The notes under the pieces are model-generated. The model saw nothing but the letters and a program-made list of their open reading frames with translations. It was not told the origin of the DNA and made no database searches. A stretch of 64,000 nt of DNA from Escherichia coli. GTDB taxonomy: Bacteria > Pseudomonadota > Gammaproteobacteria > Enterobacterales > Enterobacteriaceae. Of the stretch, positions 2,427-37,466 are shown in pieces. A program made the position numbers and the translations under genes. The stretch lies in NCBI RefSeq assembly GCF_003790525.1, contig NZ_CP033635.1. One strand, written 5' to 3'. Each line of letters begins with the position of its first letter. Position 1 is the first letter of the stretch.

Positions 2427-3227
2427 TCACCACCAGGCGTGGAAGTGGTGAACCGGACCAATACCGTGACCAACTTCCAGCATGTCGGCCTGGGCTAACG
2501 CCGATGAAAGCCAGCTTTTTGCCTCCTGTACGGTGTCAGCCCAGTTTGTATGGCGCGGGCGTAGTGCAGCCAACGCCGCAGAGAGTGTACAACCAGTGCC
2601 GTGGGTGTTTTTGGTCATAATGCGCGGTGCGGTAAACCGTTGTTCACCCTCGCGAGTAAACAGCCAGTCCGGGCTTTGCTCATCATCCAGATGACCACCT
2701 TTCATTAGCACTGCGCCACAGCCCATCGCCAACAGCGATCGCCCTTGTTCCAGCATTTCCTGTTCGTTGCGCGCGTGTGGCGCGTCGAGCAAGGCGGCAG
2801 CTTCGGGCAAGTTTGGCGTTATTAATGAAACCTGTGGCAATAATCGACTGCGCAGCGTAGCAACCGCCGAAGGTGAAAGCAGCGGATCGCCGCTTTTTGC
2901 CAGCATAACAGTGTCGAGTACCACGTTTTGGATCTGATAACGTTGCAACCGTTCTGCCACCGCTTCAACAATATCGGTTTCCGCCAACATACCGATTTTA
3001 GTGGTATCGATTCGCACATCGCTGAACACCGAATCGAGCTGGGCGGCGACAAAATCAGGCTCAATGCGATACACCGACTGTACGCCACGGGTATTTTGCG
3101 CCACCAGTGCAGTAATAACTGAGCAACCATAAGCGCCAAGTGCCGAGAAGGTTTTAAGATCGGCCTGAATCCCCGCACCACCACTCGGATCAGTACCGGC
3201 AATCGTCAGAGCGTTAATTCGTTTCAT
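2427..3227 (-). CDS. thiD: hydroxymethylpyrimidine/phosphomethylpyrimidine kinase
   Basis: 266-aa ORF beginning [27 protein letters not shown] (ThiD signature); 4-bp overlap with thiM stop indicates an operon. Confidence 0.9.
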
Positions 3228-7125: not shown

Positions 7126-7140
7126 AGAACCACCTGACTA

Positions 7141-9621
7141 TTACTGGCAAATATAATTTCTACTTTCATCAATCTCTTTACCGAAGGTGATTGTGCATGA
7201 AAGTCCTTGTTGCTTATCAATTGCTACATTAACCGATGGCGGTACTTCATTGGTGCGAATAAATAACTGGCTTCCCTGACCGACAACGCCAATATTATGA
7301 CCATGGATATCATTGACTTCATAACCAAACATTAATGGTTGCCCATCCGCTCTTAACGCTTTTATAAACCAGGGCTTGCGCTGATCGGTATCAAAATTAA
7401 CCAGTACAACCGCGCCGCGATAAGGGGCGGCAATTTTCCGGTTGCCACGTAATTCTGCTTCGCTATCGCTTTGCGACACATCCAGCATCAGGTGATTTTC
7501 CCGATAAGGTGTCATTCCGTCGTATACCACCACTCCATTACGGTTTGTTGTGCGATATTTTTGCCCATTGACATAAGCATCTTTAATTCCTGGGGCATTC
7601 ATCACAGCAAACGTTTCGGAAAGACGGTTCGCCAGATTAACGCCACCCGACCAGGCGACAATGCCCCCAGAAACACTGGCTCCAGCCTGTCGATAAGTAC
7701 TCGACTGACTATAACTGCCATTCACTGTCGCAACCGGCGCGTTCCAGGTCAAATTCGCCCCAGCTGTCGTTTCATTTCCCTGATGCTGATAACTCAGGTT
7801 GACCCCATAGTTAAACTGATCCCGGCTTCCAACGGTTCCTGATAATCCCGTATTATTTGAGGCAAACCCCTGATCATCAAACGTCGTTGAGTTAGACATA
7901 TATATTTGCCGACGAGGCGTCGTAACGTCATCACCCCAATCAAAGGGAATCGATATAAAAATATTAAATCGTTTCTCTTCATGATGATTCTCGTCATAAG
8001 CCTGGCTTGCCGCGAGGGTATAGCTTATCCGCCGCCAGTTATTGGAATAACTCAACTGATAATCCTTACTGCTGCCGCTACGTCCCCAGTAATCTCGCCA
8101 TAACGTACTTAAGGACACAGAACCCCAGCCTTCTGGCAATGACTGGCTCATATTGGCAGAAAAGCTATTTTTACGGCCAAAATCGTTCTGGTAATAATCG
8201 GCAATGTCATAGACATCGTTTTCATCACAGCGATAATTATCTTTATTGTTTGCCCAAACGTGATCATTAAATGTCCGGTAATCACGCGATGAATAACGCC
8301 AGGCCGCAAGACCAAAACGCGTCGACGTTTGGCTCACAAATTTGTTGTAGGCAATTTGATAACTTTGCCCGTCAAACACATCGCCGTTGTCTTGTTTACT
8401 ATGCGACTTAGTGGCATCGACGGAAATGGCACCAATGCGTGTATTCCAGCCAGTCCCCAAAGTAAACGCGTAATAATTATTCGCGACCATCGAGCCGCCA
8501 TACAGCGTCAATAAATTATTAAAACCATACTGATAACCCACCTGGACAAATTCACTTTGTTTGCTCGCCCCTTCAATATGGCTACGACCCGCCGCAAAAT
8601 CATATTTCGACACGCCGGGTTGCAGCATATTTGGCACCGCTGCATAAGGCACCAGATAGGTGGTTACCGAACCGTCCGCCTCTTTCACGCTGACATCAAG
8701 ATCTGCTCCACCACCGGCCAACTGCAAATCTGTAATCGCGAACGGGCCAGGAGGAACCTCTTTCTGATAAACGACAAAACCATTCTGTTCAATAGTTACC
8801 AGCGCGTTACTCTGAGCAATCCCCTGCACCCGTGGCGTAAAATTTTGTTTCGAGTTAGGCAACATCTGCATATCACGAAACAACCGCACACCTCTGAAGC
8901 GAACAGAATCAAAAATATCGCTTGATGTGTACATATCACCCACGCGAAGCGTGCCGAGAAGTTGGGCAAATCCACGTTCCAGATACAGGGTATTGCTTTT
9001 CCACACCCCTGGATTGTTATTTGTTTTACTGAAACTGGCATCAGAATGCAGTTGCCACCCCAGTAAATTTAACCCGCTGTTAAAACGTACATATGTACTC
9101 TTGTTATTACCCGACGCTTTATAGTCGCTGTAATACTGACTCAGATAATAAGAGGTATAAAACGCATTAATACCCCGCTCCCAGTTTTCCGGTGGAACAT
9201 AGCCACTTTCCAGTTCTTCCACCCAGGCCTGCGGGACACTGAAATCGAGACGAAAAACCCCGATATCCCAGGTATAGCTCCCACCCTGAACAAGTTGCTC
9301 AAATGTTAAACATTGCTTACCGCTGGCGAAGTTATCGCTATTAATGCCTAACCGCTTGATAACTTCTCTTGATAAACATGTTTCTTGCGGGTTGTCTTTA
9401 ACAATAATCTCATATTTCCCGCGCCATTGCTTATTGACATAAATATCGATGTCATACTGCCCCGGTAAGGGTTGATTATCATCAAGACGAATATTTGCAA
9501 CCTGCTGGTCTTTCATTCCACCTATCATAAAATGGGTATCAAAGGTTTCTTCAGCTGCATAAGCTTCAATGCCGAGCAATAACGCTACGATTGCTGATGC
9601 AAGTGGGGTCATTCTCAACAT
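7141..9621 (-). CDS. yehB: fimbrial outer-membrane usher
   Basis: ~826-aa usher-like protein; start placed at the MLRMTPLASAIVALLLGIEAYA signal peptide. Confidence 0.85.
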   Translation of the reverse strand: MLRMTPLASAIVALLLGIEAYAAEETFDTHFMIGGMKDQQVANIRLDDNQPLPGQYDIDIYVNKQWRGKYEIIVKDNPQETCLSREVIKRLGINSDNFASGKQCLTFEQLVQGGSYTWDIGVFRLDFSVPQAWVEELESGYVPPENWERGINAFYTSYYLSQYYSDYKASGNNKSTYVRFNSGLNLLGWQLHSDASFSKTNNNPGVWKSNTLYLERGFAQLLGTLRVGDMYTSSDIFDSVRFRGVRLFRDMQMLPNSKQNFTPRVQGIAQSNALVTIEQNGFVVYQKEVPPGPFAITDLQLAGGGADLDVSVKEADGSVTTYLVPYAAVPNMLQPGVSKYDFAAGRSHIEGASKQSEFVQVGYQYGFNNLLTLYGGSMVANNYYAFTLGTGWNTRIGAISVDATKSHSKQDNGDVFDGQSYQIAYNKFVSQTSTRFGLAAWRYSSRDYRTFNDHVWANNKDNYRCDENDVYDIADYYQNDFGRKNSFSANMSQSLPEGWGSVSLSTLWRDYWGRSGSSKDYQLSYSNNWRRISYTLAASQAYDENHHEEKRFNIFISIPFDWGDDVTTPRRQIYMSNSTTFDDQGFASNNTGLSGTVGSRDQFNYGVNLSYQHQGNETTAGANLTWNAPVATVNGSYSQSSTYRQAGASVSGGIVAWSGGVNLANRLSETFAVMNAPGIKDAYVNGQKYRTTNRNGVVVYDGMTPYRENHLMLDVSQSDSEAELRGNRKIAAPYRGAVVLVNFDTDQRKPWFIKALRADGQPLMFGYEVNDIHGHNIGVVGQGSQLFIRTNEVPPSVNVAIDKQQGLSCTITFGKEIDESRNYICQ

Positions 9622-20338: not shown

Positions 20339-23300
20339 ATGGACAAGGAATTACCGTGGCTGGCGGATAACGCCCAACTGGAACTGAAATATAAAAAAGG
20401 CAAAACGCCGCTCAGTCATCGTCGCTGGCCGGGCGAACCAGTGTCCGTTATCACTGGAAGTCTCATCCAGACATTGGGTGATGAATTGCTACAAAAAGCT
20501 GAGAAGAAAAAAAACATTGTCTGGCGTTATGAGAATTTTTCACTGGAGTGGCAGTCCGCCATCACGCAGGCCATCAACTTGATCGGCGAACACAAACCCT
20601 CAATCCCGGCCCGGACAATGGCGGCGCTAGCCTGTATCGCGCAAAATGACAGCCAACAGTTGCTCGACGAAATCGTCCAACAAGAGGGGCTGGAATATGC
20701 GACTGAGGTGGTGATTGCACGCCAGTTTATTGCGCGGTGTTATGAGAGTGATCCTCTGGTAGTGACATTGCAGTATCAGGACGAGGATTATGGCTATGGT
20801 TATCGCTCAGAAACCTATAACGAATTCGATCTCCGACTGCGTAAGCATCTCTCTCTGGCAGAGGAAAGCTGCTGGCAGCGTTGCGCCGACAAACTCATTG
20901 CCGCACTACCAGGAATAACCAAAGTTCGCCGCCCTTTTATTGCGCTGATCCTCCCGGAAAAACCAGAAATAGCCAATGAGTTGGTAGGCCTTGAATGCCC
21001 GCGAACTCATTTTCATTCTAAGGAGTGGTTAAAAGTTGTTGCTAATGACCCCACAGCGGTGAGAAAACTCGAACACTACTGGAGCCAGGATATATTTAGC
21101 GATCGAGAAGCCAGCTACATGTCGCATGAAAACCACTTCGGCTACGCGGCCTGCGCCGCCCTTTTGCGCGAACAAGGACTGGCAGCCATTCCGCGCCTCG
21201 CGATGTATGCCCATAAAGAAGATTGCGGCAGTCTGCTGGTACAAATTAACCATCCGCAAGTCATCCGCACCTTGCTACTGGTGGCTGATAAAAACAAACC
21301 CAGCCTGCAACGTGTAGCTAAATACCATAAAAACTTCCCCCATGCGACGCTCGCCGCACTGGCAGAACTGCTGGCGTTAACAGAACCACCAGCCCGCCCT
21401 GGTTATCCAATCATCGAAGACAAAAAGCTGCCTGCACAGCAAAAAGCACGCGATGAATACTGGCGTACGCTGTTACAAACGCTGATGGCATCGCAGCCAC
21501 AACTGGCAGCAGAAGTGATGCCGTGGTTAAGTACTCAACCCCAGTCAGTGCTGAAGAGTTATTTATCGGCACCGCCCAAACCGGTTATTGATGGCACCGA
21601 TAACAGCAATCTGCCAGAAATCCTCGTTTCACCACCGTGGCGTAGTAAGAAAAAAATGACAGCTCCACGTCTTGATTTGGCACCGCTCGAATTAACTCCG
21701 CAAGTTTACTGGCAACCAGGCGAACAAGAGAGGCTTGCCGCCACTGAGCCTGCCCGTTATTTCAGCACGGAATCTCTTGCGCAACGCATGGAACAAAAAA
21801 GTGGACGAGTTGTATTACAGGAACTGGGTTTTGGGGATGATGTATGGCTGTTTCTGAATTATATACTCCCCGGAAAACTGGATGCTGCACGCAATTCACT
21901 CTTGTTCAGTGGCATTACTACCAGGGGCGGGTTGAAGAGATCCTGAATGGCTGGAACTCCCCGGAAGCACAATTAGCAGAACAGGCGCTCCGCAGCGGTC
22001 ACATAGAAGCGTTAATTAACATATGGGAAAATGACAACTACTCACATTATCGTCCGGAAAAGAGTGTCTGGAACCTGTATTTATTGGCACAGTTGCCGCG
22101 TGAGATGGCTTTGACCTTCTGGCTGCGTATCAATGAGAAAAAGCATCTGTTCGCGGGTGAGGACTATTTTCTCAGTATCCTCGGATTGGATGCGCTACCA
22201 GGTCTGCTGTTGGCTTTTTCACATCGTCCAAAAGAAACATTTCCGTTAATTTTAAATTTTGGCGCAACAGAACTGGCGCTGCCTGTTGCCCACGTCTGGC
22301 GACGTTTCGCGGCGCAGCGTGATCTGGCTCGCCAGTGGATTTTACAATGGCCGGAACATACGGCTAGTGCACTTATCCCTCTTGTCTTTACCAAACCCAG
22401 CGATAATAGCGAAGCCGCATTACTTGCCCTGCGTTTACTGTACGAACAGGGACATGGCGAATTGCTACAAACCGTGGCAAACCGCTGGCAGCGTACAGAT
22501 GTATGGTCTGCCCTGGAGCAGTTGCTTAAACAGGGTCCAATGGACATTTACCCGGCACGCATTCCAAAAGCCCCTGATTTCTGGCATCCGCAAATGTGGT
22601 CCAGGCCGCGCCTTATCACTAATAATCAAACTGTTACCAATGACGCTCTGGAAATTATCGGCGAAATGCTGCGCTTTACCCAGGGGGGACGTTTTTATAG
22701 CGGGCTGGAACAACTGAAAACGTTCTGCCAGCCACAAACGCTGGCAGCTTTTGCCTGGGATCTCTTCACTGCGTGGCAACAAGCTGGTGCCCCCGCAAAA
22801 GACAACTGGGCATTTCTGGCGTTAAGTCTCTTTGGTGACGAAAGCACGGCACGGGATCTGACGACACAGATCCTCGCCTGGCCACAAGAAGGCAAATCTG
22901 CCCGTGCTGTCAGCGGCCTGAACATCCTTACCCTGATGAATAATGATATGGCGCTGATACAGCTGCATCATATATCGCAACGGGCTAAATCCCGCCCCTT
23001 ACGTGATAACGCGGCGGAATTTCTTCAGGTGGTCGCAGAAAATCGCGGGCTAAGCCAGGAAGAGCTAGCGGACAGATTAGTCCCAACCCTGGGCCTTGAT
23101 GATCCGCAGGCGTTGAGTTTTGATTTTGGTCCCCGGCAGTTTACCGTTCGCTTCGATGAAAATCTCAACCCGGTTATCTTTGATCAGCAAAACGTTCGCC
23201 AGAAAAGCGTTCCCCGTTTGCGCGCCGATGACGATCAACTGAAAGCGCCCGAGGCACTGGCCCGACTAAAAGGGCTAAAAAAAGATGCTACTCAGGTGAG

Positions 23301-23970
23301 CAAAAACCTGCTCCCGCGTCTTGAAACGGCCCTACGTACCACCCGACGCTGGTCGCTGGCAGATTTTCATTCTCTGTTTGTTAATCATCCCTTTACCCGT
23401 CTGGTTACCCAGCGATTAATATGGGGGGTTTATCCGGCAAATGAACCGCGTTGTTTACTCAAAGCCTTTCGTGTGGCCGCAGAGGGGGAGTTCTGCAATG
23501 CGCAAGATGAGCCAATTGACCTGCCTGCGGACGCTCTGATTGGCATTGCCCACCCGTTAGAAATGACAGCAGAAATGCGCAGTGAATTTGCACAGCTTTT
23601 TGCCGATTACGAAATTATGCCGCCTTTTCGCCAGTTGTCGCGCCGCACGGTGCTGCTCACACCTGACGAGTCAACCAGTAACAGCCTGACTCGCTGGGAA
23701 GGTAAATCCGCTACCGTTGGGCAACTTATGGGAATGCGATACAAAGGCTGGGAGTCAGGCTATGAGGACGCATTTGTCTATAACCTGGGTGAGTACCGGC
23801 TGGTCCTTAAGTTTTCACCCGGTTTTAACCACTACAATGTTGATAGCAAAGCGCTAATGAGCTTCCGTTCTCTTCGAGTGTACCGTGACAATAAATCCGT
23901 CACTTTTGCCGAACTTGATGTGTTTGATTTGAGTGAGGCGTTAAGCGCACCTGACGTCATTTTCCATTAA
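20339..23970 (+). pseudogene. yehI: yehI-like DUF4132 gene split into two overlapping ORFs by a frameshift within 21841-21946
   Basis: ORFs 20339-21946 and 21844-23970 overlap in different frames and together are collinear with the molR paralogue. Confidence 0.65.
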
Positions 23971-24030
23971 AACACAGCGGGCAGTGATGCAACTGCCCGT
24001 TATCAACACGACTTACCAGCGGGGAAAGCG

Positions 24031-24348
24031 ATGATCGTGCAAAAAGAGCTGGTTGCTATTTACGATTATGAGGTCCCTGTACCTGAAGATCCGTTTTCCT
24101 TCAGACTTGAGATCCATAAATGCTCTGAATTATTTACAGGTTCCGTCTATCGACTGGAGCGATTCCGGCTACGTCCAACATTTCATCAACGTGATCGAGA
24201 AGATGCTGACCCGCTAATAAATGATGCGTTGATTTATATAAGAGATGAGTGTATTGATGAGCGGAAATTACGAGGTGAATCACCTGAAACTGTAATAGCA
24301 ATTTTTAATCGTGAACTACAGAATATATTCAACCAAGAAATAGAATAA
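24031..24348 (+). CDS. yehK: small protein of unknown function
   Basis: 105-aa ORF, AT-richer than its neighbours, at the K-12 yehK position. Confidence 0.65.
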   Translation: MIVQKELVAIYDYEVPVPEDPFSFRLEIHKCSELFTGSVYRLERFRLRPTFHQRDREDADPLINDALIYIRDECIDERKLRGESPETVIAIFNRELQNIFNQEIE

Positions 24349-24517
24349 TATACTCTAAATAATTCAAATTGGTCCGATCCGGCGCAACGTCCCAATGGCC
24401 TGGATTATAAATCTCATTATCTTAATTGCAACGGGGTCCAGCCGTGGTTATAATTCGTTCGTTGGAACACGATGTTGCACAGGCTGTGGTGTTAGGCCTG
24501 AAAATAGTAAATAAAAG

Positions 24518-24546
24518 AACCTGCCTCACCAGCAGGTTTTTTTATT
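24518..24546 (+). terminator. intrinsic terminator about 170 nt downstream of yehK
   Basis: Hairpin CCTGC-CTCACCA-GCAGG followed by TTTTTTTATTT. Confidence 0.65.
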
Positions 24547-24654
24547 TACTGTGATCTGCTTTCCAGATATTTTTCGCTCAAACAACTAATGCGCCAAACA
24601 TTTATTGCGCGTAAAATATCGTTTATTTCATTAATACATTTCAGGGATGAATAT

Positions 24655-25743
24655 ATGTCACCGCAGAATAATCATCTGCAGCGTCCGCCTGCTGCTGTGT
24701 TATACGCCGATGAACTGGCAAAATTAAAACAAAATGATAACGCACCTTGCCCGCCCGGTTGGCAGTTAAGTTTGCCTGCGGCCCGTGCTTTTATCCTTGG
24801 CGACGAAGCGCAAAATATCAGCCGTAAAGTGGTGATTAGCCCCTCCGCTGTCGAACGTATGTTAGTCACTCTTGCTACCGGCCGCGGTTTGATGTTGGTG
24901 GGGGAACCGGGTACCGCAAAATCTCTTCTTTCTGAATTACTGGCAACCGCTATTAGCGGCGATGCCGGGTTAACCATCCAGGGCGGGGCATCTACCACCG
25001 AAGATCAAATCAAGTATGGCTGGAACTACGCCCTGCTTATCAATCATGGTCCGTCAACGGAAGCGCTGGTCCCTGCCCCGCTTTATCAGGAAATGCGCGA
25101 CGGCAAAATCGTCCGTTTCGAAGAGATAACGCGTACACCGCTGGAAGTGCAGGACTGTCTGTTAGGTATGCTTTCTGACAGGGTGATGACGGTGCCGGAA
25201 CTCACTGGTGAAGCCAGTCAGCTCTATGCGCGAGAAGGCTTTAATATTATTGCCACTGCCAATACCCGCGATCGCGGCGTCAATGAAATGAGTGCTGCGC
25301 TAAAGCGTCGCTTCGATTTTGAAACGGTTTTTCCGATTATGGATTTCGCCCAGGAGTTGGAACTGGTCGCCAGTGCTTCGGCGCGTTTGCTGGCCCATAG
25401 CGGTATTCCGCATAAAGTGCCTGACGCGGTACTGGAATTACTGGTCCGCACCTTCCGCGATCTGCGTGCCAACGGCGAAAAGAAAACGTCAATGGATACA
25501 CTGACAGCGATTATGTCCACCGCTGAAGCCGTGAACGTGGCCCATGCTGTGGGCGTCCGCGCCTGGTTTTTAGCGAATCGCGCGGGGGAGCCTGCCGACC
25601 TGGTGGAATGTATTGCCGGAACCATCGTCAAAGATAACGAAGAAGATCGCGCGCGTCTGCGCCGTTACTTCGAACAGCGTGTCGCCACACATAAAGAAGC
25701 TCACTGGCAGGCTTATTATCAAGCCCGCCACCGCCTGCCGTGA
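24655..25743 (+). CDS. yehL: MoxR-like AAA+ ATPase
   Basis: 362-aa product from the ATG at 24655; Walker A LMLVGEPGTAKS. Confidence 0.85.
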   Translation: MSPQNNHLQRPPAAVLYADELAKLKQNDNAPCPPGWQLSLPAARAFILGDEAQNISRKVVISPSAVERMLVTLATGRGLMLVGEPGTAKSLLSELLATAISGDAGLTIQGGASTTEDQIKYGWNYALLINHGPSTEALVPAPLYQEMRDGKIVRFEEITRTPLEVQDCLLGMLSDRVMTVPELTGEASQLYAREGFNIIATANTRDRGVNEMSAALKRRFDFETVFPIMDFAQELELVASASARLLAHSGIPHKVPDAVLELLVRTFRDLRANGEKKTSMDTLTAIMSTAEAVNVAHAVGVRAWFLANRAGEPADLVECIAGTIVKDNEEDRARLRRYFEQRVATHKEAHWQAYYQARHRLP

Positions 25744-25753
25744 GGAAAGATGC

Positions 25754-28033
25754 ATGAGCGAGCCGTTAATTGTCGGCATCCGGCATCATAGTCCGGCCTG
25801 CGCCCGGCTGGTGAAATCGTTAATCGAAAGCCAGCGGCCACGATACGTGTTGATTGAAGGCCCGGCTGATTTTAATGACCGGGTAGACGAACTGTTTTTA
25901 GCCCACCAGCTTCCGGTAGCTATTTACAGTTATTGCCAGTATCAGGACGGTGCAGCCCCCGGGCGTGGTGCCTGGACGCCATTTGCTGAATTTTCGCCGG
26001 AGTGGCAGGCGCTACAAGCCGCACGTCGCATTCAGGCACAAACTTACTTCATCGATTTGCCTTGCTGGGCGCAGAGTGAAGAAGAGGACGATTCGCCTGA
26101 TACGCAAGATGAAAGCCAGGCCTTACTGCTGCGTGCCACCCGCATGGATAACAGCGATACCCTGTGGGATCACTTGTTCGAAGATGAAAGCCAGCAAACT
26201 GCATTACCCTCTGCGCTGGCGCACTATTTTGCCCAACTGCGGGGCGACGCCTCCGGCGATGCGCTCAATCGTCAGCGCGAAGCCTTTATGGCCCGCTGGA
26301 TTGGATGGGCGATGCAGCAAAATAATGGCGACGTGTTAGTTGTCTGCGGTGGCTGGCACGCTCCGGCACTGGCAAAGATGTGGCGCGAATGCCCTCAGAA
26401 AATTAACAAGCCAGAATTGCCCTCGCTGGCAGATGCCGTTACAGGTTGTTATCTCACACCCTACAGTGAAAAGCGCCTTGATGTGCTGGCAGGATACCTT
26501 TCAGGAATGCCTGCCCCGGTATGGCAAAACTGGTGCTGGCAGTGGGGCTTGCAGAAGGCCGGTGAACAACTGCTAAAAACTATCCTTACCCGTTTGCGCC
26601 AGCACAAATTGCCCGCTTCTACCGCGGATATGGCTGCCGCTCATCTGCATGCGATGGCGCTGGCACAGTTGCGCGGTCATACACTACCGTTACGCACTGA
26701 CTGGCTGGATGCCATAGCAGGCTCGCTGATTAAAGAAGCCCTGAACGCGCCGTTGCCGTGGAGCTATCGCGGCGTTATTCATCCCGATACCGATCCGATT
26801 CTGCTAACGTTGATAGACACATTAGCGGGTGACGGATTCGGTAAACTTGCCCCTTCTACGCCACAACCGCCTCTGCCAAAAGATGTCACCTGCGAACTGG
26901 AACGTACCGCAATCTCCCTTCCGGCGGAGCTTACCTTAAATCGCTTTACCCCCGATGGGCTGGCGCAAAGTCAGGTGTTACATCGGCTGGCAATACTGGA
27001 GATCCCTGGGATTGTACGCCAGCAGGGAAGTACACTGACACTTGCAGGCAACGGTGAAGAACGCTGGAAATTAACCCGCCCGCTTAGCCAGCATGCGGCA
27101 TTGATTGAGGCCGCCTGTTTTGGTGCCACACTCCAGGAAGCCGCACGCAATAAATTAGAAGCCGATATGCTGGACGCGGGCGGAATCGGCAGTATCACCA
27201 CATGTCTTAGCCAGGCGGCGTTAGCGGGTCTGGCGTCCTTCAGTCAACAATTACTGGAGCAACTCACACTATTAATCGCCCAGGAAAATCAATTTGCCGA
27301 AATGGGCCAGGCGCTGGAAGTGCTTTATGCCTTATGGCGGCTGGATGAAATTAGCGGTATGCAAGGCGCGCAGATATTACAAACGACGTTATGCGCGACT
27401 ATCGATCGCACGCTGTGGCTGTGTGAATCTAACGGCAGACCGGATGAAAAGGAGTTTCACGCTCACCTGCATAGCTGGCAAGCGCTTTGCCATATTCTGC
27501 GCGATCTACATAGCGGCGTTAATTTACCCGGCGTTTCTCTTTCTGCGGCGGTAGCCTTACTGGAGCGACGCAGTCAGGCAATTCATGCCCCGGCGCTGGA
27601 TCGCGGCGCGGCTCTTGGCGCACTAATGCGTCTGGAACATCCCAACGCCAGTGCCGAAGCGGCGCTGACGATGCTGGCGCAGTTATCCCCGGCACAATCT
27701 GGTGAGGCGCTGCACGGTTTGCTGGCGCTGGCCCGCCATCAACTGGCCTGTCAGCCGGCATTTATCGCCGGTTTCAGCAGTCATTTAAATCAACTGAGTG
27801 AAGCCGATTTTATTAACGCCCTGCCCGATTTACGCGCGGCGATGGCCTGGCTACCACCACTAGAACGCGGGACGCTGGCGCATCAGGTGCTTGAGCATTA
27901 TCAACTGGCGCAACTTCCCGTTTCGGCGCTGCAAATGCCGTTGCATTGTCCACCACAGGCCATTGCACATCATCAACAACTCGAACAGCAGGCACTGGCA
28001 TCGCTGCAAAACTGGGGAGTTTTCCATGTCTGA
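25754..28033 (+). CDS. yehM: large protein of unknown function, partner of the MoxR ATPase
   Basis: 759-aa ORF starting MSEPLIVGIRHHSPACARLV...; tightly linked to yehL and yehP. Confidence 0.8.
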   Translation: MSEPLIVGIRHHSPACARLVKSLIESQRPRYVLIEGPADFNDRVDELFLAHQLPVAIYSYCQYQDGAAPGRGAWTPFAEFSPEWQALQAARRIQAQTYFIDLPCWAQSEEEDDSPDTQDESQALLLRATRMDNSDTLWDHLFEDESQQTALPSALAHYFAQLRGDASGDALNRQREAFMARWIGWAMQQNNGDVLVVCGGWHAPALAKMWRECPQKINKPELPSLADAVTGCYLTPYSEKRLDVLAGYLSGMPAPVWQNWCWQWGLQKAGEQLLKTILTRLRQHKLPASTADMAAAHLHAMALAQLRGHTLPLRTDWLDAIAGSLIKEALNAPLPWSYRGVIHPDTDPILLTLIDTLAGDGFGKLAPSTPQPPLPKDVTCELERTAISLPAELTLNRFTPDGLAQSQVLHRLAILEIPGIVRQQGSTLTLAGNGEERWKLTRPLSQHAALIEAACFGATLQEAARNKLEADMLDAGGIGSITTCLSQAALAGLASFSQQLLEQLTLLIAQENQFAEMGQALEVLYALWRLDEISGMQGAQILQTTLCATIDRTLWLCESNGRPDEKEFHAHLHSWQALCHILRDLHSGVNLPGVSLSAAVALLERRSQAIHAPALDRGAALGALMRLEHPNASAEAALTMLAQLSPAQSGEALHGLLALARHQLACQPAFIAGFSSHLNQLSEADFINALPDLRAAMAWLPPLERGTLAHQVLEHYQLAQLPVSALQMPLHCPPQAIAHHQQLEQQALASLQNWGVFHV

Positions 28034-29162
28034 ACTGAACGATCTTCTGACCACCCGTGAGCTACAACGCTGGCGATTAATTCTTGGCGAAGCGGCAGAA
28101 ACGACGCTTTGTGGGCTGGATGACAACGCCCGGCAGATAGACCACGCGCTGGAGTGGCTGTATGGGCGCGATCCTGAACGGCTCCAGCGTGGTGAACGTT
28201 CCGGTGGATTAGGTGGCTCAAATCTCACCACCCCTGAGTGGATCAACAGTATTCACACGCTGTTTCCGCAGCAGGTGATTGAGCGGCTGGAAAGCGATGC
28301 CGTGCTGCGCTACGGCATTGAAGATGTGGTGACGAATCTCGACGTGCTGGAACGTATGCAGCCTTCTGAAAGCCTGCTACGCGCTGTTTTGCACACCAAA
28401 CATCTGATGAACCCCGAAGTACTGGCTGCCGCCCGCCGGATAGTGTGCCAGGTTGTTGAAGAAATTATGGCTCGACTGGCAAAGGAAGTTCGTCAGGCTT
28501 TTTCTGGTGTCCGCGATCGCCGTCGCCGTTCATTTATTCCACTGGCGCGAAACTTTGATTTCAAAAGTACTCTGCGCGCCAACCTGCAACACTGGCACCC
28601 GCAACACGGCAAGTTGTATATCGAATCCCCCCGCTTTAACAGCCGCATTAAACGCCAAAGCGAACAATGGCAACTGGTCTTACTGGTTGATCAAAGCGGA
28701 TCGATGGTTGACTCGGTGATCCACTCTGCGGTGATGGCGGCCTGTTTATGGCAGTTACCCGGCATTCGTACCCATCTGGTGGCGTTTGACACCAGCGTCG
28801 TTGATCTCACGGCAGACGTTGCTGATCCGGTAGAGTTATTAATGAAAGTACAACTGGGCGGCGGGACCAATATCGCCAGTGCCGTGGAGTATGGTCGGCA
28901 ACTTATTGAACAACCAGCAAAAAGCGTCATTATCCTCGTGAGCGATTTCTATGAAGGGGGTTCATCATCATTGCTGACGCATCAGGTGAAAAAGTGTGTC
29001 CAGAGCGGCGTCAAAGTGCTGGGACTGGCGGCGCTCGATAGCACCGCAACACCTTGCTATGACCGCGATATGGCCCAGGCGCTGGTTAATGTCGGCGCAC
29101 AAATAGCTGCCATGACACCGGGCGAACTGGCGGCCTGGCTTGCGGAGAATCTTCAGTCATGA
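28026..29162 (+). CDS. yehP: von Willebrand factor A (VWA) domain protein
   Basis: 378-aa product MSELNDLLTT...; MIDAS-like motif LLVDQSGSM; start overlaps the yehM stop by 8 nt. Confidence 0.85.
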   Translation: MSELNDLLTTRELQRWRLILGEAAETTLCGLDDNARQIDHALEWLYGRDPERLQRGERSGGLGGSNLTTPEWINSIHTLFPQQVIERLESDAVLRYGIEDVVTNLDVLERMQPSESLLRAVLHTKHLMNPEVLAAARRIVCQVVEEIMARLAKEVRQAFSGVRDRRRRSFIPLARNFDFKSTLRANLQHWHPQHGKLYIESPRFNSRIKRQSEQWQLVLLVDQSGSMVDSVIHSAVMAACLWQLPGIRTHLVAFDTSVVDLTADVADPVELLMKVQLGGGTNIASAVEYGRQLIEQPAKSVIILVSDFYEGGSSSLLTHQVKKCVQSGVKVLGLAALDSTATPCYDRDMAQALVNVGAQIAAMTPGELAAWLAENLQS

Positions 29163-31159
29163 ATTCACTACGTCCGGAATTATTAGAACTGACGCCGCAG
29201 GCCCTGACGGCGTTAAGCAATGCCGGTTTTGTTAAACGCAGTCTTAAGGAACTGGAAAATGGCAACGTCCCGGAAATCAGCCATAAGAACGGCGCTTTAA
29301 TCGCCACCTTCAGTGACGGTGTCCGTACCCAGCTGGCGAACGGTCAGGCACTGAAAGAGGCTCAATGCAGCTGCGGGGCCAACGGTATGTGCCGTCATCG
29401 CGTGATGCTGGTGTTAAGTTATCAACGACTTTGTGCCACCACTCAGTCTACGGAAAAAGAAGAAGAGTGGGATCCGGCAATCTGGCTGGAAGAACTGGCT
29501 ACCCTTCCCGATGCTACCCGCAAACGCGCACAGGCGCTGGTCGCTAAAGGCATCACCATTGAGTTGTTCTGTGCGCCGGGTGAAATTCCCTCTGCCCGCT
29601 TACCGATGAGCGATGTGCGTTTTTATTCCCGCAGCAGTATTCGTTTCGCCCGTTGTGATTGTATTGAAGGCACACTTTGCGAACATGTCGTACTGGCGGT
29701 ACAGGCCTTCGTCGAGGCCAAAGCGCAGCAAGTAGAATTTAACCATTTAATCTGGCAGATGCGCAGCGAACACGTCACATCATCTGACGATCCGTTTGCC
29801 AGCGAAGAAGGCAACGCGTGTCGTCAATATGTTCAGCAATTAAGCCAGACATTATGGCTTGGCGGCATCAGCCAGCCGCTCATCCATTACGAGGCAGCAT
29901 TCAACCGCGCATTGCAGGCGGCAGAGACCTGCAACTGGCGCTGGGTGAGTGAATCGCTACGGCAACTGCGCGCCAGCGTTGATGCCTTCCACGCCCGCGC
30001 CAGCCACTATAATGCCGGAGAATGCTTACATCAGCTTGCGGCATTAAACAGTCGATTAAATTGCGCACAAGAGATGGCCCGGCGCGACAGTATTGGTGAA
30101 GTTCCTCCTGTGCCGTGGCGCACGGTCGTTGGCTCTGGCATTGCCGGAGAAGCAAAGCTTGATCATCTGCGGCTGGTGTCTTTAGGTATGCGTTGCTGGC
30201 AGGATATTGAGCATTATGGTTTACGCATCTGGTTTACCGATCCCGACACCGGCAGTATTTTGCACCTTTCGCGCAGTTGGCCGCGAAGTGAACAGGAAAA
30301 CTCACCGGCAGCTACGCGTCGGCTGTTTAGTTTTCAGGCTGGCGCACTGGCGGGCGGGCAAATTGTTTCACAAGCAGCAAAACGCAGTGCCGATGGCGAG
30401 CTGCTGTTAGCTACCCGCAACCGCTTAAGCAGCGTTGTGCCGCTGTCGCCTGATGCCTGGCAAATGTTGAGCGCGCCGTTACGCCAGCCGGGCATTGTGG
30501 CTTTGCGGGAATATTTACGCCAGCGTCCCCCCGCCTGCATACGGCCTCTTAATCAGGTCGATAACTTATTTATTCTGCCGGTCGCTGAGTGTATTTCGCT
30601 CGGTTGGGACAGCAGCCGCCAGACGCTGGATGCGCAGGTCATTAGCGGCGAAGGGGAAGATAATGTGCTGACGTTATCATTACCAGCCTCAGCCAGCGCA
30701 CCTTATGCCGTTGAACGCATGGCGGCGCTTTTGCAACAAACAGACGACCCCGTGTGTCTGGTTTCTGGCTTTGTCAGTTTTGTTGAAGGGCAATTGACAC
30801 TGGAACCACGGGTGATGATGACAAAAACCCGTGCCTGGGCGCTGGACGCAGAAACTACGCCTGTGGCACCGCTACCTTCTGCCAGCGTTTTGCCTGTGCC
30901 GTCTACTGCTCATCAGTTGCTGATACGCTGCCAGGCGTTACTTATTCAACTGCTCCATAACGGCTGGCACTATCAGGAACAGAGTGCTATTGGTCAGGCA
31001 GAGTTGCTGGCGAATGACCTCACCGCGGTGGGTTTTTATCGGCTGGCACATGTGTTGGGACAATTTCGTAATACAGAAAGCGAGGCACGGGTAGAAGCAA
31101 TGAATAACGGTGTTTTGCTTTGCGAACAATTATTCCCCATGCTTCAGCAACAAGGATGA
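29159..31159 (+). CDS. yehQ: SWIM zinc-finger domain protein
   Basis: Two SWIM-like CxC...CxH motifs (CSCGANGMCRHRVMLV and CDCIEGTLCEHVVLAV); ATGA start/stop overlap with yehP. Confidence 0.8.
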   Translation: MNSLRPELLELTPQALTALSNAGFVKRSLKELENGNVPEISHKNGALIATFSDGVRTQLANGQALKEAQCSCGANGMCRHRVMLVLSYQRLCATTQSTEKEEEWDPAIWLEELATLPDATRKRAQALVAKGITIELFCAPGEIPSARLPMSDVRFYSRSSIRFARCDCIEGTLCEHVVLAVQAFVEAKAQQVEFNHLIWQMRSEHVTSSDDPFASEEGNACRQYVQQLSQTLWLGGISQPLIHYEAAFNRALQAAETCNWRWVSESLRQLRASVDAFHARASHYNAGECLHQLAALNSRLNCAQEMARRDSIGEVPPVPWRTVVGSGIAGEAKLDHLRLVSLGMRCWQDIEHYGLRIWFTDPDTGSILHLSRSWPRSEQENSPAATRRLFSFQAGALAGGQIVSQAAKRSADGELLLATRNRLSSVVPLSPDAWQMLSAPLRQPGIVALREYLRQRPPACIRPLNQVDNLFILPVAECISLGWDSSRQTLDAQVISGEGEDNVLTLSLPASASAPYAVERMAALLQQTDDPVCLVSGFVSFVEGQLTLEPRVMMTKTRAWALDAETTPVAPLPSASVLPVPSTAHQLLIRCQALLIQLLHNGWHYQEQSAIGQAELLANDLTAVGFYRLAHVLGQFRNTESEARVEAMNNGVLLCEQLFPMLQQQG

Positions 31160-31283: not shown

Positions 31284-31745
31284 ATGAAGGCTTTCAATAA
31301 GCTGTTTTCCCTCGTTGTTGCATCTGTTCTGGTTTTCTCTCTTGCTGGCTGCGGTGACAAAGAAGAATCGAAGAAATTCAGCGCCAATCTGAACGGCACT
31401 GAAATTGCCATTACCTATGTCTACAAAGGTGACAAGGTGCTTAAGCAATCTTCTGAAACCAAAATTCAATTTGCCTCCATTGGTGCAACCACCAAAGAAG
31501 ATGCTGCCAAGACACTTGAGCCGTTAAGCGCCAAATACAAAAACATCGCGGGTGTTGAAGAAAAATTAACCTATACCGATACCTACGCGCAGGAAAACGT
31601 GACTATCGATATGGAAAAAGTGGATTTTAAAGCCCTGCAGGGTATTTCAGGAATCAACGTTTCTGCTGAAGATGCCAAAAAAGGTATCACTATGGCGCAA
31701 ATGGAACTGGTGATGAAAGCCGCTGGTTTTAAAGAAGTGAAATAA
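31284..31745 (+). CDS. yehR: lipoprotein (DUF1307 family)
   Basis: MKAFNKLFSLVVASVLVFSLAGC lipobox signal peptide. Confidence 0.85.
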   Translation: MKAFNKLFSLVVASVLVFSLAGCGDKEESKKFSANLNGTEIAITYVYKGDKVLKQSSETKIQFASIGATTKEDAAKTLEPLSAKYKNIAGVEEKLTYTDTYAQENVTIDMEKVDFKALQGISGINVSAEDAKKGITMAQMELVMKAAGFKEVK

Positions 31746-32301: not shown

Positions 32302-33021
32302 TTACAGGCCAATCGCCTCTTTTAAGCTTTTCAGATAACGGCGGCTGACCGGCACGGTTAAGCCATTACGCAAAATCAACTCGGCCTGGCCGTTATCTTC
32401 CAGACGAATCTCCTGTAAATGCGCGAGGTTAACCAGATACTGACGATGGCAGCGCAGTAGTGGTGTACGACTTTCCAGGGTACGTAATGTCAATTCGGTA
32501 AAGCCCTCTTTCCCTTCGTGGCTGGTAACGTAGACACCGCTCATCCGACTGCTGACAAATGCCACATCTTTCATTTGCAGCAAATAAATCCGACTATGCC
32601 CCGTACAAGGGATAAATTTCAGCGCCTGTTGATTTTCCGGTAACAGCGAAACATCCTGCTTGCTGCGCTCCTGACGCAATCGCGCCAGCGTTTTCTCCAG
32701 TCGCGCTTCATCAATTGGCTTCAGCAGATAATCAAAGGCATGTTCTTCAAAGGCTTTAATTGCGTATTCGTCAAACGCAGTGAGAAAAACAATATACGGG
32801 CGATGTTCCGGGTCAAGCATCCCCACCATTTCCAGACCACTGATGCGCGGCATCTGGATATCGAGAAACAGCACATCCGGGCGCAGTTTATGCACCGCGC
32901 CGATCCCTTCCACGGCGTTTGAACACTCTCCAACGATTTCAATATCGCTCTGCTCCTGCAAAAATACACGCAGGTTCTCCCGTGCTAACGGTTCATCATC
33001 GACAATTAAGACTTTAATCAT
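32302..33021 (-). CDS. btsR: LytTR-family two-component response regulator
   Basis: Product [16 protein letters not shown]... with receiver and LytTR domains; 4-bp overlap with the upstream kinase gene. Confidence 0.9.
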
Positions 33022-36539: not shown

Positions 36540-37466
36540 TTACGCCTCCACCAGCAGATCCTGAAAATGCAGCGTGCCGCAAGGCTGGCCCTGCATGTTC
36601 ACCACCGGCAGCACCTCGCATCCCCGCGCAACAAACAGAGAGAGCGCATCGCGTAGCGTCATCTCTTCTGCCAGTGCCTCACCATCTGCTCGTTCTTCGC
36701 GACGCACGTAATCCGCCACACTACGTAACGAAAGCAGGCGCACACCCAGTTCACTACGTCCAAAAAACTGGCGGACAAAATCATTCGCCGGACGAGTCAG
36801 CATCGTCAGCGGATTGCCCTGCTGCACTACTTCACCGTGATCCATCAATACCAGATGTTCTGCCAGCCGTAGCGCCTCATCAATATCATGAGTGACCAGC
36901 ACAATGGTACGCCCCAGCAAACGGTGAATGCGCGTCATCTCTTGTTGCAACGCGCCGCGCGTTACCGGGTCCAGTGCGCCAAAAGGTTCATCCATCAGTA
37001 AGACTTGCGGATCGGCAGCCAGTGCACGCGCCACTCCCACACGTTGCTGCTGACCACCGGAAAGCTGATGCGGATAACGCTCACGCAAATTTGACTCCAG
37101 CCCCAGTAGCGCCATTAATTCGTCGATACGATCGTCAATCCGCGCCCGCGACCATTTTTGTAATTGCGGCACGGTAGCGATGTTTTGCGCCACGCTCCAG
37201 TGGGGGAACAGGCCAATAGATTGAATGGCATAGCCCATCCGGCGGCGCAACTCCAGTACTGGCAGCGAGCGAATTTCTTCTCCGGCAAAGCGGATCACTC
37301 CGCTGTCATGCTCCACCAGGCGGTTAATCATTTTCAGGGTGGTGGATTTGCCGGAGCCAGATGTGCCAATCAGCACCGAAAAACTCCCTTCCTGAAAATT
37401 GAGATTGAGATCGTTAACGGCTTTTTGTGCGCCGAACAGTTTGCTGACATGGCTAAATTCAATCAT
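36540..37466 (-). CDS. yehX: osmoprotectant ABC transporter ATP-binding protein
   Basis: Walker [13 protein letters not shown] signature LSGGQQQRV and Walker [12 protein letters not shown]. Confidence 0.9.

What the first reader, a model, noticed from the sequence alone, without database searches (positions are those of the whole stretch)
28026..29162. Overlapping stop/start junctions implying translational coupling in yehM-yehP-yehQ
The yehP start codon lies inside the yehM 3' end (ATGTCTGA, 8-nt overlap) and the yehQ ATG overlaps the yehP stop (ATGA). Such junctions usually indicate co-translated subunits of one complex made in fixed stoichiometry.
Basis: seen in the sequence. Interest (0 to 1): 0.25.

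Follow-up and report, generated by a model that had tools for sequence, protein, structure and literature searches.

The report
Overlapping stop/start junctions in yehLMPQ
The two gene overlaps are real and are kept across distant bacteria, so linked translation of these genes is plausible though untested, but overlaps of this type are among the commonest gene junctions in bacteria, so the finding is ordinary.

Summary
The window is an E. coli chromosome. The finding spans exactly the yehP gene of the yehL-yehM-yehP-yehQ cluster.

**Observation: confirmed.**
- The yehP ATG (28026) lies 8 nt inside yehM (ATGTCTGA, stop 28031-33).
- The yehQ ATG (29159) overlaps the yehP stop (ATGA).
- No other usable start codon exists for either gene, so the overlaps are not annotation artefacts.

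**Not unusual in themselves.** -4 and -8 are the first and third most common spacings in E. coli. Three more such overlaps lie in the same window (thiM/thiD, btsS/btsR, yehY/yehX).

**Conservation in 80 related loci (~39 genera, Proteobacteria to Actinobacteria):**
- The order DUF4132-yehL-yehM-yehP-yehQ is kept.
- The yehP/yehQ RTGA overlap is present in 68 of 81 loci.
- The yehM/yehP junction stays overlapped in most loci, but its geometry varies.
- The yehI/yehL junction is usually a gap.
- Shine-Dalgarno-like motifs precede both downstream starts.
- No RNA structure masks either start.

**Most likely mechanism:** termination-reinitiation coupling on one H-NS-silenced mRNA. This is inferred, not shown.

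"One complex in fixed stoichiometry" is plausible, because MoxR ATPases pair with VWA proteins, but it is unproven.

Interest is low. The five-gene system itself is uncharacterised.

The parts
24655..25743 (+). yehL, MoxR-type AAA+ ATPase (362 aa); first gene of the tightly packed unit
   Evidence: Pfam AAA_5, E 4.7e-35. RefSeq annotation. Named as the type of the YehL subfamily of MoxR ATPases (PMC3893208). PDB sequence hits are to midasin AAA domains.
25741..25756 (+). yehL/yehM junction: TGA stop 25741-43, GAGGA Shine-Dalgarno 25742-46 overlapping the stop, yehM ATG 25754-56 (10-nt gap)
   Evidence: Read. SD:anti-SD duplex -6.2 kcal/mol. +9..+12 nt is a small E. coli-specific peak of spacings. 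In homologues this junction is -4 or -1 in 38 of 76 loci and a gap of 0-15 nt in 25.
25754..28033 (+). yehM, DUF5682 protein (759 aa)
28014..28019 (+). GGGGAG Shine-Dalgarno-like motif for yehP, inside yehM (Trp-Gly-Val codons), 6 nt before the ATG
   Evidence: Duplex with the 16S 3' end is -7.9 kcal/mol, better than 98.5% of in-frame positions in yehM (computed on the E. coli locus L001; the same -7.9 was recomputed on the window).
28026..28033 (+). yehM/yehP stop-start overlap ATGTCTGA (-8): yehP ATG 28026-28, yehM TGA 28031-33
   Evidence: The 76-nt segment around it was found in 5327 of 5426 E. coli genomes, all but one at >=95% identity. Among 77 homologous loci the junction is -4 in 42, -8 in 7, -1 in 4, -11 in 2, another overlap in 7, a gap of 0-15 nt in 4, a gap >50 nt in 10, and has no usable start prediction in 1.
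28026..29162 (+). yehP, VWA (CoxE-like) protein with intact MIDAS motif (378 aa); this is the interval of the finding
   Evidence: Pfam VWA_CoxE, E 1.4e-72. Invariant D222-x-S224-x-S226, T281, D307. 58-70% identical between E. coli, Betaproteobacteria and Actinobacteria.
29144..29147 (+). GGAG Shine-Dalgarno-like motif for yehQ inside yehP (Ala-Glu codons), 11 nt before the ATG (long spacing)
   Evidence: Duplex -6.6 kcal/mol, in the top 5.6% of positions. Non-enteric homologues instead carry AAGGTG (Lys-Val codons) 5 nt before the ATG.
29159..29162 (+). yehP/yehQ stop-start overlap ATGA (-4): yehQ ATG 29159-61, yehP TGA 29160-62
   Evidence: Invariant in five Escherichia alleles although the flanks vary. 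RTGA overlap in 68 of 81 loci and 30 of 39 genus-level groups. The yehP stop is TGA in 81 of 81 loci. The overlapping start is the only start candidate within 150 nt in 49 loci.
29159..31159 (+). yehQ, SWIM zinc-finger protein (666 aa, intact in this window)
   Evidence: Pfam SWIM, E 1.6e-7. Invariant C70, C72, C78, H80. AF2 model pLDDT 90.6. The central beta region gives marginal Foldseek matches to tandem OB folds (RPA70 1jmc E 1.3e-3, MNDA HIN, LEF-3, POT1). K-12 DH1 carries yehQ as a pseudogene with an internal stop.

Best explanation
yehL, yehM, yehP and yehQ are read from one polycistronic mRNA that H-NS normally keeps silent.

Proposed steps at the junctions:
- A ribosome finishing yehM at UGA 28031-33 is within a few nucleotides of the yehP AUG (28026). 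The GGGGAG motif 6 nt upstream of that AUG holds it by pairing with 16S rRNA, and it reinitiates there.
- A ribosome finishing yehP at UGA 29160-62 reinitiates on the AUG that shares two bases with that stop (AUGA).
- The yehL/yehM junction (10-nt gap, GAGGA overlapping the stop) is either weakly coupled or initiated independently.

The result is that YehP and YehQ are made only when, and roughly in proportion to how much, the upstream protein is made. All four proteins emerge close together from the same mRNA.

The proteins probably act together as a MoxR-ATPase/VWA-centred assembly, with YehM, YehQ and the upstream DUF4132 protein YehI as further components.

Shown: the geometry, the forced overlaps, the Shine-Dalgarno-like motifs, the lack of masking RNA structure, and the conservation of gene order and overlaps.

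Inferred: a single transcript, dependence of downstream translation on upstream termination, physical association of the proteins, and any particular stoichiometry.
For: Geometry and forced overlaps.

Published tests (literature):
- 4 of 5 native E. coli -4 pairs were coupled using only -99..+30 nt of context, and the Shine-Dalgarno motif mattered in 4 of 5 (PMC6728339).
- Coupling falls steeply with spacing. The -8..+6 window is treated as the termination-reinitiation window, and -4/-1/-8 are the enriched classes (PMC10666635; PMC12548453).

Conservation in 80 loci from about 39 genera:
- Gene order is kept.
- P->Q is -4 in 68 of 81 loci.
- M->P is overlapped in 62 of 77 loci, switching between -1, -4, -8 and -11.
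- L->M is -4 or -1 in 38 of 76 and a gap of 0-15 nt in 25.
- The I->L junction of the same loci, used as an internal control, is a gap in 59 of 69.

Shine-Dalgarno motifs:
- SD:anti-SD pairing before the yehP and yehQ starts has a median of -6.4 and -6.6 kcal/mol, against about -3.3 for background positions in the same genes.
- The pairing falls in the best quarter of background positions in 49 of 65 and 61 of 78 loci.

Transcript:
- No sigma-70-like promoter lies on the + strand inside yehL-yehQ.
- yehL and yehM are co-derepressed in hns/stpA mutants (PMC3686432).

Protein partnership:
- MoxR ATPases generally pair with adjacent VWA proteins, and RavA binds ViaA (PMC3893208).
- YehL's closest solved relatives are midasin AAA domains. 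From my own knowledge, not checked here: midasin carries an AAA ring and a MIDAS/VWA domain in one chain.
- Hu et al. 2009 place yehI/K/L/M/P/Q/R in one genomic-context module.
Against: - No experiment on these junctions exists in the searched literature.
- One of five tested E. coli -4 pairs (bioBF) was not coupled.
- The yehP initiation region has a strong, well-spaced Shine-Dalgarno motif and is less structured than shuffled sequence (z +1.6). Free ribosomes could therefore initiate there without coupling.
- Overlaps longer than 4 nt couple less well.
- ATGA is self-stabilising: any change destroys a start or a stop codon. Its conservation may reflect that rather than selection for coupling.
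- Some lineages have uncoupled M->P junctions: +100 nt in Burkholderia, and inserted genes in Chitinibacter, Xenophilus and an Azoarcus MAG. Coupling is therefore not required for the system.
- No physical Yeh complex was reported by Hu et al. 2009. The module there is genomic-context only.
- RavA:ViaA is about 4:1 rather than equimolar.
Confidence: 0.6

Rival explanations
1. Independent initiation. The overlaps are a by-product of gene packing and start/stop drift. Each gene is initiated by free 30S subunits at its own intragenic Shine-Dalgarno site, with no dependence on upstream translation.
For: - Own SD-like sites exist at all three downstream genes (-6.2, -7.9, -6.6 kcal/mol).
- The yehP initiation region is unusually unstructured (z +1.6; 195 of 200 shuffles fold at least as well).
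- bioBF, a native -4 pair, initiates de novo.
- Homologous systems tolerate +70 to +100 nt gaps or inserted genes between yehM and yehP.
- Overlaps of this kind are frequent between genes that do not form complexes, such as btsS/btsR and thiM/thiD.
Against: - 4 of 5 and 3 of 3 tested native E. coli pairs with such junctions were coupled.
- The E. coli yehQ SD sits 11 nt from the AUG, a poor spacing for de novo initiation.
- The three internal junctions stay within the reinitiation window in most of ~39 genera, whereas the I->L junction of the same loci does not.
Confidence: 0.27
2. Coupling by RNA unfolding. The downstream start sites are locked in secondary structure with upstream coding sequence, and are opened only by ribosomes translating the upstream gene.
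For: This is the classical mechanism for several E. coli and phage pairs (introduction of PMC6728339; PMC12548453). In the minimum-energy fold of the yehL/yehM junction, a stem covers the yehL stop and the first bases of the GAGGA motif.
Against: Folds of -99..+30 nt around the three junctions are no more stable than shuffled controls (z -1.28, +1.61, +0.22). In the yehP and yehQ folds the SD and AUG are largely unpaired or weakly paired. Long-range pairings beyond 130 nt were not examined.
Confidence: 0.08
3. The overlaps serve frameshifting or fusion. Ribosomes shift frame at the junctions to make YehM-YehP or YehP-YehQ fusion proteins.
For: Three database proteins join the domains: P0004 (DUF5682+VWA, 619 aa), P0009 and P0051 (VWA+SWIM).
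Against: Each of these is a single-member cluster, 88-98% identical to E. coli YehP. They are best explained as indel mutants or sequencing errors. No slippery heptamer is seen by eye in the yehM frame at 28010-28033. All 80 distant loci keep separate ORFs with a stop codon.
Confidence: 0.01

Closest known systems
Native E. coli gene pairs with 4-nt stop/start overlap shown to be coupled by termination-reinitiation (hyfHI, astDB, ydbH-ynbE, menDH; Huber et al. 2019, PMC6728339)
   Same: Same ATGA geometry at yehP/yehQ. An intragenic Shine-Dalgarno motif lies in the upstream gene. No need for long-range structure.
   Different: yehMPQ has never been tested. The yehM/yehP junction is the less common -8 class. 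The E. coli yehQ SD is 11 nt from the AUG.
bioB-bioF of E. coli (4-nt overlap without coupling; PMC6728339)
   Same: Same overlap geometry.
   Different: bioF initiated de novo despite a weak SD. This shows that geometry alone does not prove coupling. Which of the two behaviours yehP and yehQ follow is unknown.
ravA-viaA, the other MoxR AAA+/VWA operon of E. coli (PMC3893208)
   Same: A MoxR-family ATPase and a VWA/MIDAS protein are encoded in one operon. The partners bind each other and ViaA stimulates the ATPase.
   Different: - Different MoxR subfamily (RavA versus YehL).
- ravA-viaA has two genes. The Yeh cluster has four or five, with DUF5682, SWIM and DUF4132 partners.
- RavA:ViaA is about 350:90 per cell, not equimolar.
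- The function of Yeh is unknown.
AAA+/VWA chelatase motors (CobS-CobT, BchI-BchD) and eukaryotic midasin
   Same: A dynein-related AAA_5 ATPase is combined with a MIDAS-containing VWA domain. YehL hits midasin AAA domains. YehP weakly hits a cobaltochelatase model, and JGI names homologues 'Mg-chelatase subunit ChlD'.
   Different: Scores are far below the family cut-offs (18 bits against a cut-off of 779). No CobN/BchH-like subunit is present. The partners are instead a ChaN/TraB-like protein and a SWIM protein.

Membership tests
Stop/start-overlap gene pair coupled by termination-reinitiation | Co-directional neighbours with stop-to-start spacing within about -8..+6 nt | tested here: met
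   -8 at 28026-28033 and -4 at 29159-29162. Alternative starts are excluded.
Stop/start-overlap gene pair coupled by termination-reinitiation | Both genes lie on one transcript, with no promoter or terminator between them | tested here: inconclusive
   No sigma-70-like site on the + strand within yehL-yehQ, and overlaps leave no room for one. yehL and yehM are co-derepressed in hns/stpA mutants. No transcript mapping was available. The consensus scan is weak evidence.
Stop/start-overlap gene pair coupled by termination-reinitiation | Shine-Dalgarno-like motif inside the upstream gene, ahead of the downstream start (needed in 4 of 5 tested E. coli pairs) | tested here: met
   GGGGAG 28014-19 (-7.9 kcal/mol, 6-nt spacing). 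GGAG 29144-47 (-6.6 kcal/mol, 11-nt spacing, suboptimal). Enriched across homologous loci.
Stop/start-overlap gene pair coupled by termination-reinitiation | Translation of the downstream gene depends on ribosomes reaching the upstream stop codon | not testable with these tools
   Needs reporter fusions with premature stop codons, or ribosome profiling. No such data were found.
Coupling by unmasking of RNA secondary structure | A stable structure sequesters the downstream SD or start codon | tested here: not met
   z-scores -1.28, +1.61 and +0.22 for -99..+30 nt windows. Long-range pairing was not examined.
MoxR AAA+ / VWA partner system (YehL subfamily) | MoxR-type AAA+ ATPase gene | tested here: met
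   AAA_5, E 4.7e-35. YehL is the named type of the subfamily.
MoxR AAA+ / VWA partner system (YehL subfamily) | Neighbouring gene for a VWA protein with a MIDAS motif | tested here: met
   VWA_CoxE, E 1.4e-72. Invariant DxSxS, T and D residues. Linkage kept in 77 of the 81 loci examined (80 fetched from other genomes plus the E. coli locus L001); the other four are L018 and L020, where no yehL/yehM was detected upstream, and the short contigs L049 and L055.
MoxR AAA+ / VWA partner system (YehL subfamily) | Physical interaction of the ATPase and the VWA protein | not testable with these tools
   No solved structure exists for YehM, YehP or YehQ relatives. Hu et al. 2009 list only a genomic-context module.
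Heteromeric complex made in fixed stoichiometry | Conserved co-occurrence and order of the subunit genes | tested here: met
   yehI-L-M-P-Q order is kept in nearly all of 80 loci from Proteobacteria and Actinobacteria.
Heteromeric complex made in fixed stoichiometry | Co-purification and a defined subunit ratio | not testable with these tools
   No data found. The base rate for E. coli pairs at -8..+10 nt is 30.4%.
Known anti-phage defence systems (PADLOC-DB 2.0) | Any protein matching a defence-system model | tested here: not met
   No hits at E <= 0.01 for YehK, YehL, YehM, YehP or YehQ.

The most novel reading that the evidence does not exclude
The conserved cluster YehI (DUF4132), YehL (MoxR AAA+), YehM (ChaN/TraB/Tiki-like domain with twin GxxH motifs plus helical repeats), YehP (VWA/MIDAS) and YehQ (SWIM zinc finger plus tandem OB-like barrels) is a single, horizontally spread, ATP-driven multi-subunit machine of a kind not yet described. 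It may act on nucleic acid or take part in biological conflict. On this reading, the phylum-spanning stop/start overlaps exist because its subunits must be made and assembled together on one mRNA.
Probability: 0.25. Interest if true: 0.6.

Novelty: new member of a known kind. Interest (0 to 1): 0.17.

Why it matters
As stated, the finding adds one more untested example to a very large and well-described class. About a quarter of E. coli co-directional gene pairs have such junctions, so it changes little.

Its modest value is as a pointer. The overlaps and the gene order are kept from E. coli to Streptomyces-like Actinobacteria. This marks yehL-M-P-Q, with yehI, as a genuine functional unit.

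That unit is still uncharacterised. It has no PADLOC, NCBIfam or PDB assignment for three of its proteins, and almost no literature. If someone sets out to study this MoxR-VWA system, the junctions say two things. The genes should be expressed together from the native arrangement. Polar or nonsense mutations in yehM or yehP are likely to reduce the downstream proteins as well.

Tried and rejected
1. Annotation artefact: rejected. There are no alternative start codons, and homologue N-termini align from the first residues.
2. Masking RNA structure at the junctions: not found.
3. Internal promoters: none found by consensus scan. This is weak evidence.
4. Known defence system: no PADLOC hits.
5. 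Named family for YehM, YehQ or YehI: none in NCBIfam or by PDB sequence search.
7. Fusion or frameshift proteins (P0004, P0009, P0051): judged to be indel variants of E. coli genes, not natural fusions.
8. Ribosome-profiling synthesis rates (Li et al. 2014): the paper is not held.
9. Physical interaction data in Hu et al. 2009: only a genomic-context module was found.
10. One broad literature search returned mostly noise.
11. Shine-Dalgarno enrichment at the yehL->yehM junction across loci was not seen (median -2.4 kcal/mol). This may be due to uncertain start prediction there.
12. A genome-wide background for each of the 80 genomes was not computed. The I->L junction of the same loci and published genome-wide figures were used instead.
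Full report
**Identity of the region.** The segment 24000-31800 of the window matches 5425 of 5426 complete E. coli genomes at 90-99.6% identity. The RefSeq annotation of strain 203740 maps onto the window as follows.

| Gene | Window coordinates | Pfam family |
|---|---|---|
| yehK | 24031-24348 | none |
| yehL | 24655-25743 | AAA_5 (MoxR-type), E 4.7e-35 |
| yehM | 25754-28033 | DUF5682, E 6e-98 |
| yehP | 28026-29162 | VWA_CoxE, E 1.4e-72 |
| yehQ | 29159-31159 | SWIM, E 1.6e-7 |
| yehR | 31284-31745 | DUF1307, E 3.8e-45 |

The interval of the finding is exactly the yehP coding sequence.

**The observation.** It is correct to the base.
- ATGTCTGA at 28026-28033 contains the yehP ATG and the yehM TGA.
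- ATGA at 29159-29162 contains the yehQ ATG and the yehP TGA.

I also checked that the overlaps are not an artefact of start-codon choice.
- In the yehP frame there is no ATG, GTG or TTG in the 80 codons after 28026. The only other candidates are TTGs 63 and 135 nt further upstream, which would lengthen the overlap.
- In the yehQ frame, 29159 is the first start codon after the upstream in-frame stop. The next one is at codon 77, which would remove part of the invariant CxC...CxH SWIM motif at residues 70-80.
- Homologues from other genera align from residues 1-13 of both proteins.

The yehL TGA (25741-43) is followed after 10 nt by the yehM ATG (25754), and a GAGGA motif overlaps the stop.

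**Is it more than chance?** As a piece of geometry, no.
- In E. coli, 707 of 2,987 co-directional pairs (24%) lie between -8 and +6 nt. The -4 class is the commonest, followed by -1 and -8. A further 7% lie at +9..+12 nt (PMC10666635).
- In the annotated 50 kb homologous to this window, 5 of 27 co-directional pairs overlap by 4 or 8 nt. Besides the two Yeh junctions these are thiM/thiD (ATGA, about 3224-3227), btsS/btsR (ATGA, 33018-33021) and yehY/yehX (ATGATTGA, 37459-37466).

The yehLMPQ operon therefore shows the three most typical E. coli operon junctions.

**Conservation.** This is the informative part. An alignment of YehP homologues was used to fetch 80 loci from one-genome-per-species contigs. 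They come from Enterobacterales, many Betaproteobacteria, Xanthomonadales, Trichlorobacter, a Polyangiaceae MAG and about a dozen actinobacterial genera. YehP is 58-70% identical across these phyla.

tblastn with the E. coli proteins shows the same order, DUF4132 (yehI)-yehL-yehM-yehP-yehQ, in nearly all loci. Burkholderia has yehI after yehQ.

For each junction I located the upstream stop codon and all in-frame start candidates. I took as the predicted start the candidate nearest to the N-terminus projected from the alignment.

| Junction | Loci | Overlapped | Gap 0-15 nt | Gap 16-50 nt | Gap >50 nt | No call |
|---|---|---|---|---|---|---|
| yehP->yehQ | 81 | 72 (68 at -4, 2 at -1, 2 other) | 6 | 1 | 2 | 0 |
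| yehM->yehP | 77 | 62 (42 at -4, 7 at -8, 4 at -1, 2 at -11, 7 other) | 4 | 0 | 10 | 1 |
| yehL->yehM | 76 | 38 (22 at -4, 16 at -1) | 25 | 2 | 10 | 1 |
| yehI->yehL (internal control) | 69 | 10 (8 at -4, 2 at -8) | 12 | 13 | 34 | 0 |

- For yehP->yehQ, the -4 class holds in 30 of 39 genus-level groups. The yehP stop is TGA in all 81 loci. The overlapping start is the only candidate within 150 nt in 49 loci.
- The three junctions inside yehLMPQ are thus held within the range where reinitiation works, while the neighbouring junction is not.
- The exact geometry of M->P changes between lineages: -8 in Escherichia, TAATG in Klebsiella, +9/+10 in Erwinia, -4 in most others. This argues for a constraint on closeness rather than simple inheritance.
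- Exceptions exist: +100 nt in Burkholderia, an extra gene in Chitinibacter and Xenophilus, and toxin-antitoxin-like genes in an Azoarcus MAG.

Within E. coli, the junction segments are present in about 5330 genomes. The GCGGAGAAT...CAGTCATGAATTCAC core is invariant in five Escherichia alleles whose flanks differ.

**Ribosome-binding sites and RNA structure.**
- Pairing of the 18 nt upstream of each start with the 16S 3' end gives -6.2 (yehM), -7.9 (yehP) and -6.6 kcal/mol (yehQ). These fall in the best 8%, 1.5% and 5.6% of in-frame positions of the upstream gene.
- The yehP motif GGGGAG (28014-19) is 6 nt from the ATG. The yehQ motif GGAG (29144-47) is 11 nt away, which is long.
- Across the homologous loci the median pairing energy is -6.4 before yehP and -6.6 before yehQ, against about -3.3 for background.
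- Non-enteric species have AAGGTG, made from conserved Lys-Val codons of YehP, 5 nt before the yehQ ATG.
- Folding -99..+30 nt around each junction gives no structure beyond shuffled controls (z -1.28, +1.61, +0.22). The yehP region is, if anything, unusually open.
- No sigma-70-like promoter was found on the + strand inside the operon.

**Mechanism.** Together with the published experiments, the best reading is termination-reinitiation at both overlaps, assisted by the intragenic Shine-Dalgarno motifs, on one mRNA.

The relevant published results are these.
- Four of five native E. coli -4 pairs were coupled with only local sequence, and the SD was needed in four of five (PMC6728339).
- Coupling is nearly lost at +20 to +40 nt (PMC10666635).
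- Efficiency is best at -4..+3 nt and falls faster with longer overlaps (PMC12548453).

That mRNA is normally silenced: H-NS binds the AT-rich region upstream of yehL, and yehL and yehM rise in hns/stpA mutants (PMC3686432; 44% GC at 24000-24999 against 53-56% in the operon).

I put about 0.6 on coupling at both junctions. It is somewhat more likely at yehP/yehQ than at yehM/yehP. Independent initiation at the same SD sites is the main rival (about 0.27). It is favoured by the open, well-spaced yehP site, by the bioBF precedent, and by lineages that have broken the M->P junction. Structure-unmasking coupling (about 0.08) and frameshift fusions (about 0.01; the three fused database proteins look like indel variants) are unlikely.

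**The 'one complex, fixed stoichiometry' claim.**

Partly supported:
- Overlapping or near-overlapping pairs are enriched 4.5-fold for heteromeric-complex subunits in E. coli. Even so, that is only 30.4% of such pairs.
- MoxR ATPases generally work with an adjacent VWA protein, and RavA binds ViaA. YehL is the type of one of the seven MoxR subfamilies (PMC3893208).
- YehL's closest solved relatives are midasin AAA domains.
- YehP keeps an intact MIDAS motif.
- The five genes travel together across phyla.
- Hu et al. 2009 grouped yehI/K/L/M/P/Q/R as one genomic-context module.

Against:
- No physical Yeh complex has been reported, and no structures exist.
- RavA:ViaA is about 350:90 per cell.
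- The same overlaps in this very window join proteins that are not stoichiometric partners (btsS/btsR, thiM/thiD).

**What the proteins are (side result).**
- AF2 models built on alignments of the orthologues are confident: YehM pLDDT 87, YehQ pLDDT 90.6.
- YehM carries invariant G8-x-x-H11, E35 and G199-x-x-H202. From memory, a pair of GxxH motifs is the signature of the Tiki/TraB/ChaN/EreA superfamily. This was not checked in a source.
- The C-terminal half of YehM is helical repeats.
- YehQ has the SWIM CxCx5CxH motif and a central beta region with marginal Foldseek matches to tandem OB folds of RPA70, HIN domains, LEF-3, POT1 and CST (best E 1.3e-3).
- None of the proteins matches PADLOC or a specific NCBIfam model.
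- 'DUF5682' appears in no paper of the library and 'DUF4132' in four.

The system is uncharacterised. Its very high cross-phylum identity and patchy distribution (278 hits among about 100,000 species genomes) suggest horizontal spread.

**Verdict.** As a finding it is an ordinary instance of a well-known arrangement, so interest is low. The only less ordinary aspect is the conserved, unstudied five-gene MoxR-VWA system in which it sits.

Noticed in passing
window 24426-24548 (+), yehK-yehL intergenic region: An OrzO/OrzP-family type I antitoxin sRNA (Rfam RF02083, 99.9 bits against a gathering score of 60) lies at 24468-24543. It has a sigma-70-like promoter (TTGCAA-17-TATAAT, 24426-24454) and a hairpin plus T-run terminator. 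No 29-aa Zor toxin ORF was found in the 306-nt spacer. Fozo et al. 2010 place zorO/zorP-orzO/orzP between yehI and yehL in O157:H7 and report them absent from MG1655. This looks like an orphan antitoxin or a remnant.
   Followed up: partly
window 20339-23970 (yehI), indel near 21901: yehI (DUF4132, 1210 aa in strain 203740) is split into two ORFs in the window (20339-21946 and 21844-23970). The cause is a 1-nt deletion in a T run relative to strain 203740, so it is either a frameshift pseudogene or a sequencing error. The upstream paralogue (about 16.5-20.3 kb) is also a frameshifted DUF4132 pseudogene in the reference strain.
   Followed up: partly
window 29122-29197 and yehQ 29159-31159: The window's allele of the yehP 3' end and yehQ 5' end is rare. 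It is >=99% identical in only 46 of 5333 E. coli records, while 4325 are 90-95% identical. The yehM/yehP junction segment, by contrast, is >=99% identical in 2148 records (five shown at 100%, including K-12 DH10B) and 95-99% in 3180. K-12 DH1 carries yehQ as a pseudogene with an internal stop, whereas yehQ is intact here.
   Followed up: partly
L002-L081 (80 loci), match at about 7001-8134 in most: The cluster DUF4132-MoxR-DUF5682-VWA-SWIM is conserved in order from Enterobacterales to Actinobacteria. YehP is 58-70% identical and YehL 60-76% identical across phyla. It was found in only 278 stretches among about 100,000 species genomes. This pattern suggests horizontal transfer of a self-contained system.
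   Followed up: partly
window 25754-28033 (YehM) and 29159-31159 (YehQ): In structure predictions, YehM has an N-terminal ChaN/TraB/HopBA1-like domain with two invariant GxxH motifs, plus a helical-repeat C-terminus. YehQ has a SWIM finger or fingers plus a region resembling tandem OB folds of ssDNA-binding proteins, at marginal scores.
   Followed up: partly
L053 4295-5633; L016 5794-6834; L019 6192-6959: In three species other genes have been inserted between yehM and yehP. The Azoarcus MAG has small toxin-antitoxin-like ORFs, Chitinibacter has a 346-aa ORF, and Xenophilus has a 255-aa ORF. The Xenophilus ORF itself overlaps both neighbours by 4 nt.
   Followed up: no
window 33018-33021, 37459-37466, about 3224-3227 (all - strand): Other stop/start overlaps of the same classes lie in the window: btsS/btsR (ATGA), yehY/yehX (ATGATTGA) and thiM/thiD (ATGA).
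   Followed up: yes
window 24000-24999 versus 25000-30999: yehLMPQ is 53-56% GC, against about 50% in the flanks. The region upstream of yehL is 44% GC, which is consistent with the reported intergenic H-NS binding and with a foreign origin for the operon.
   Followed up: no
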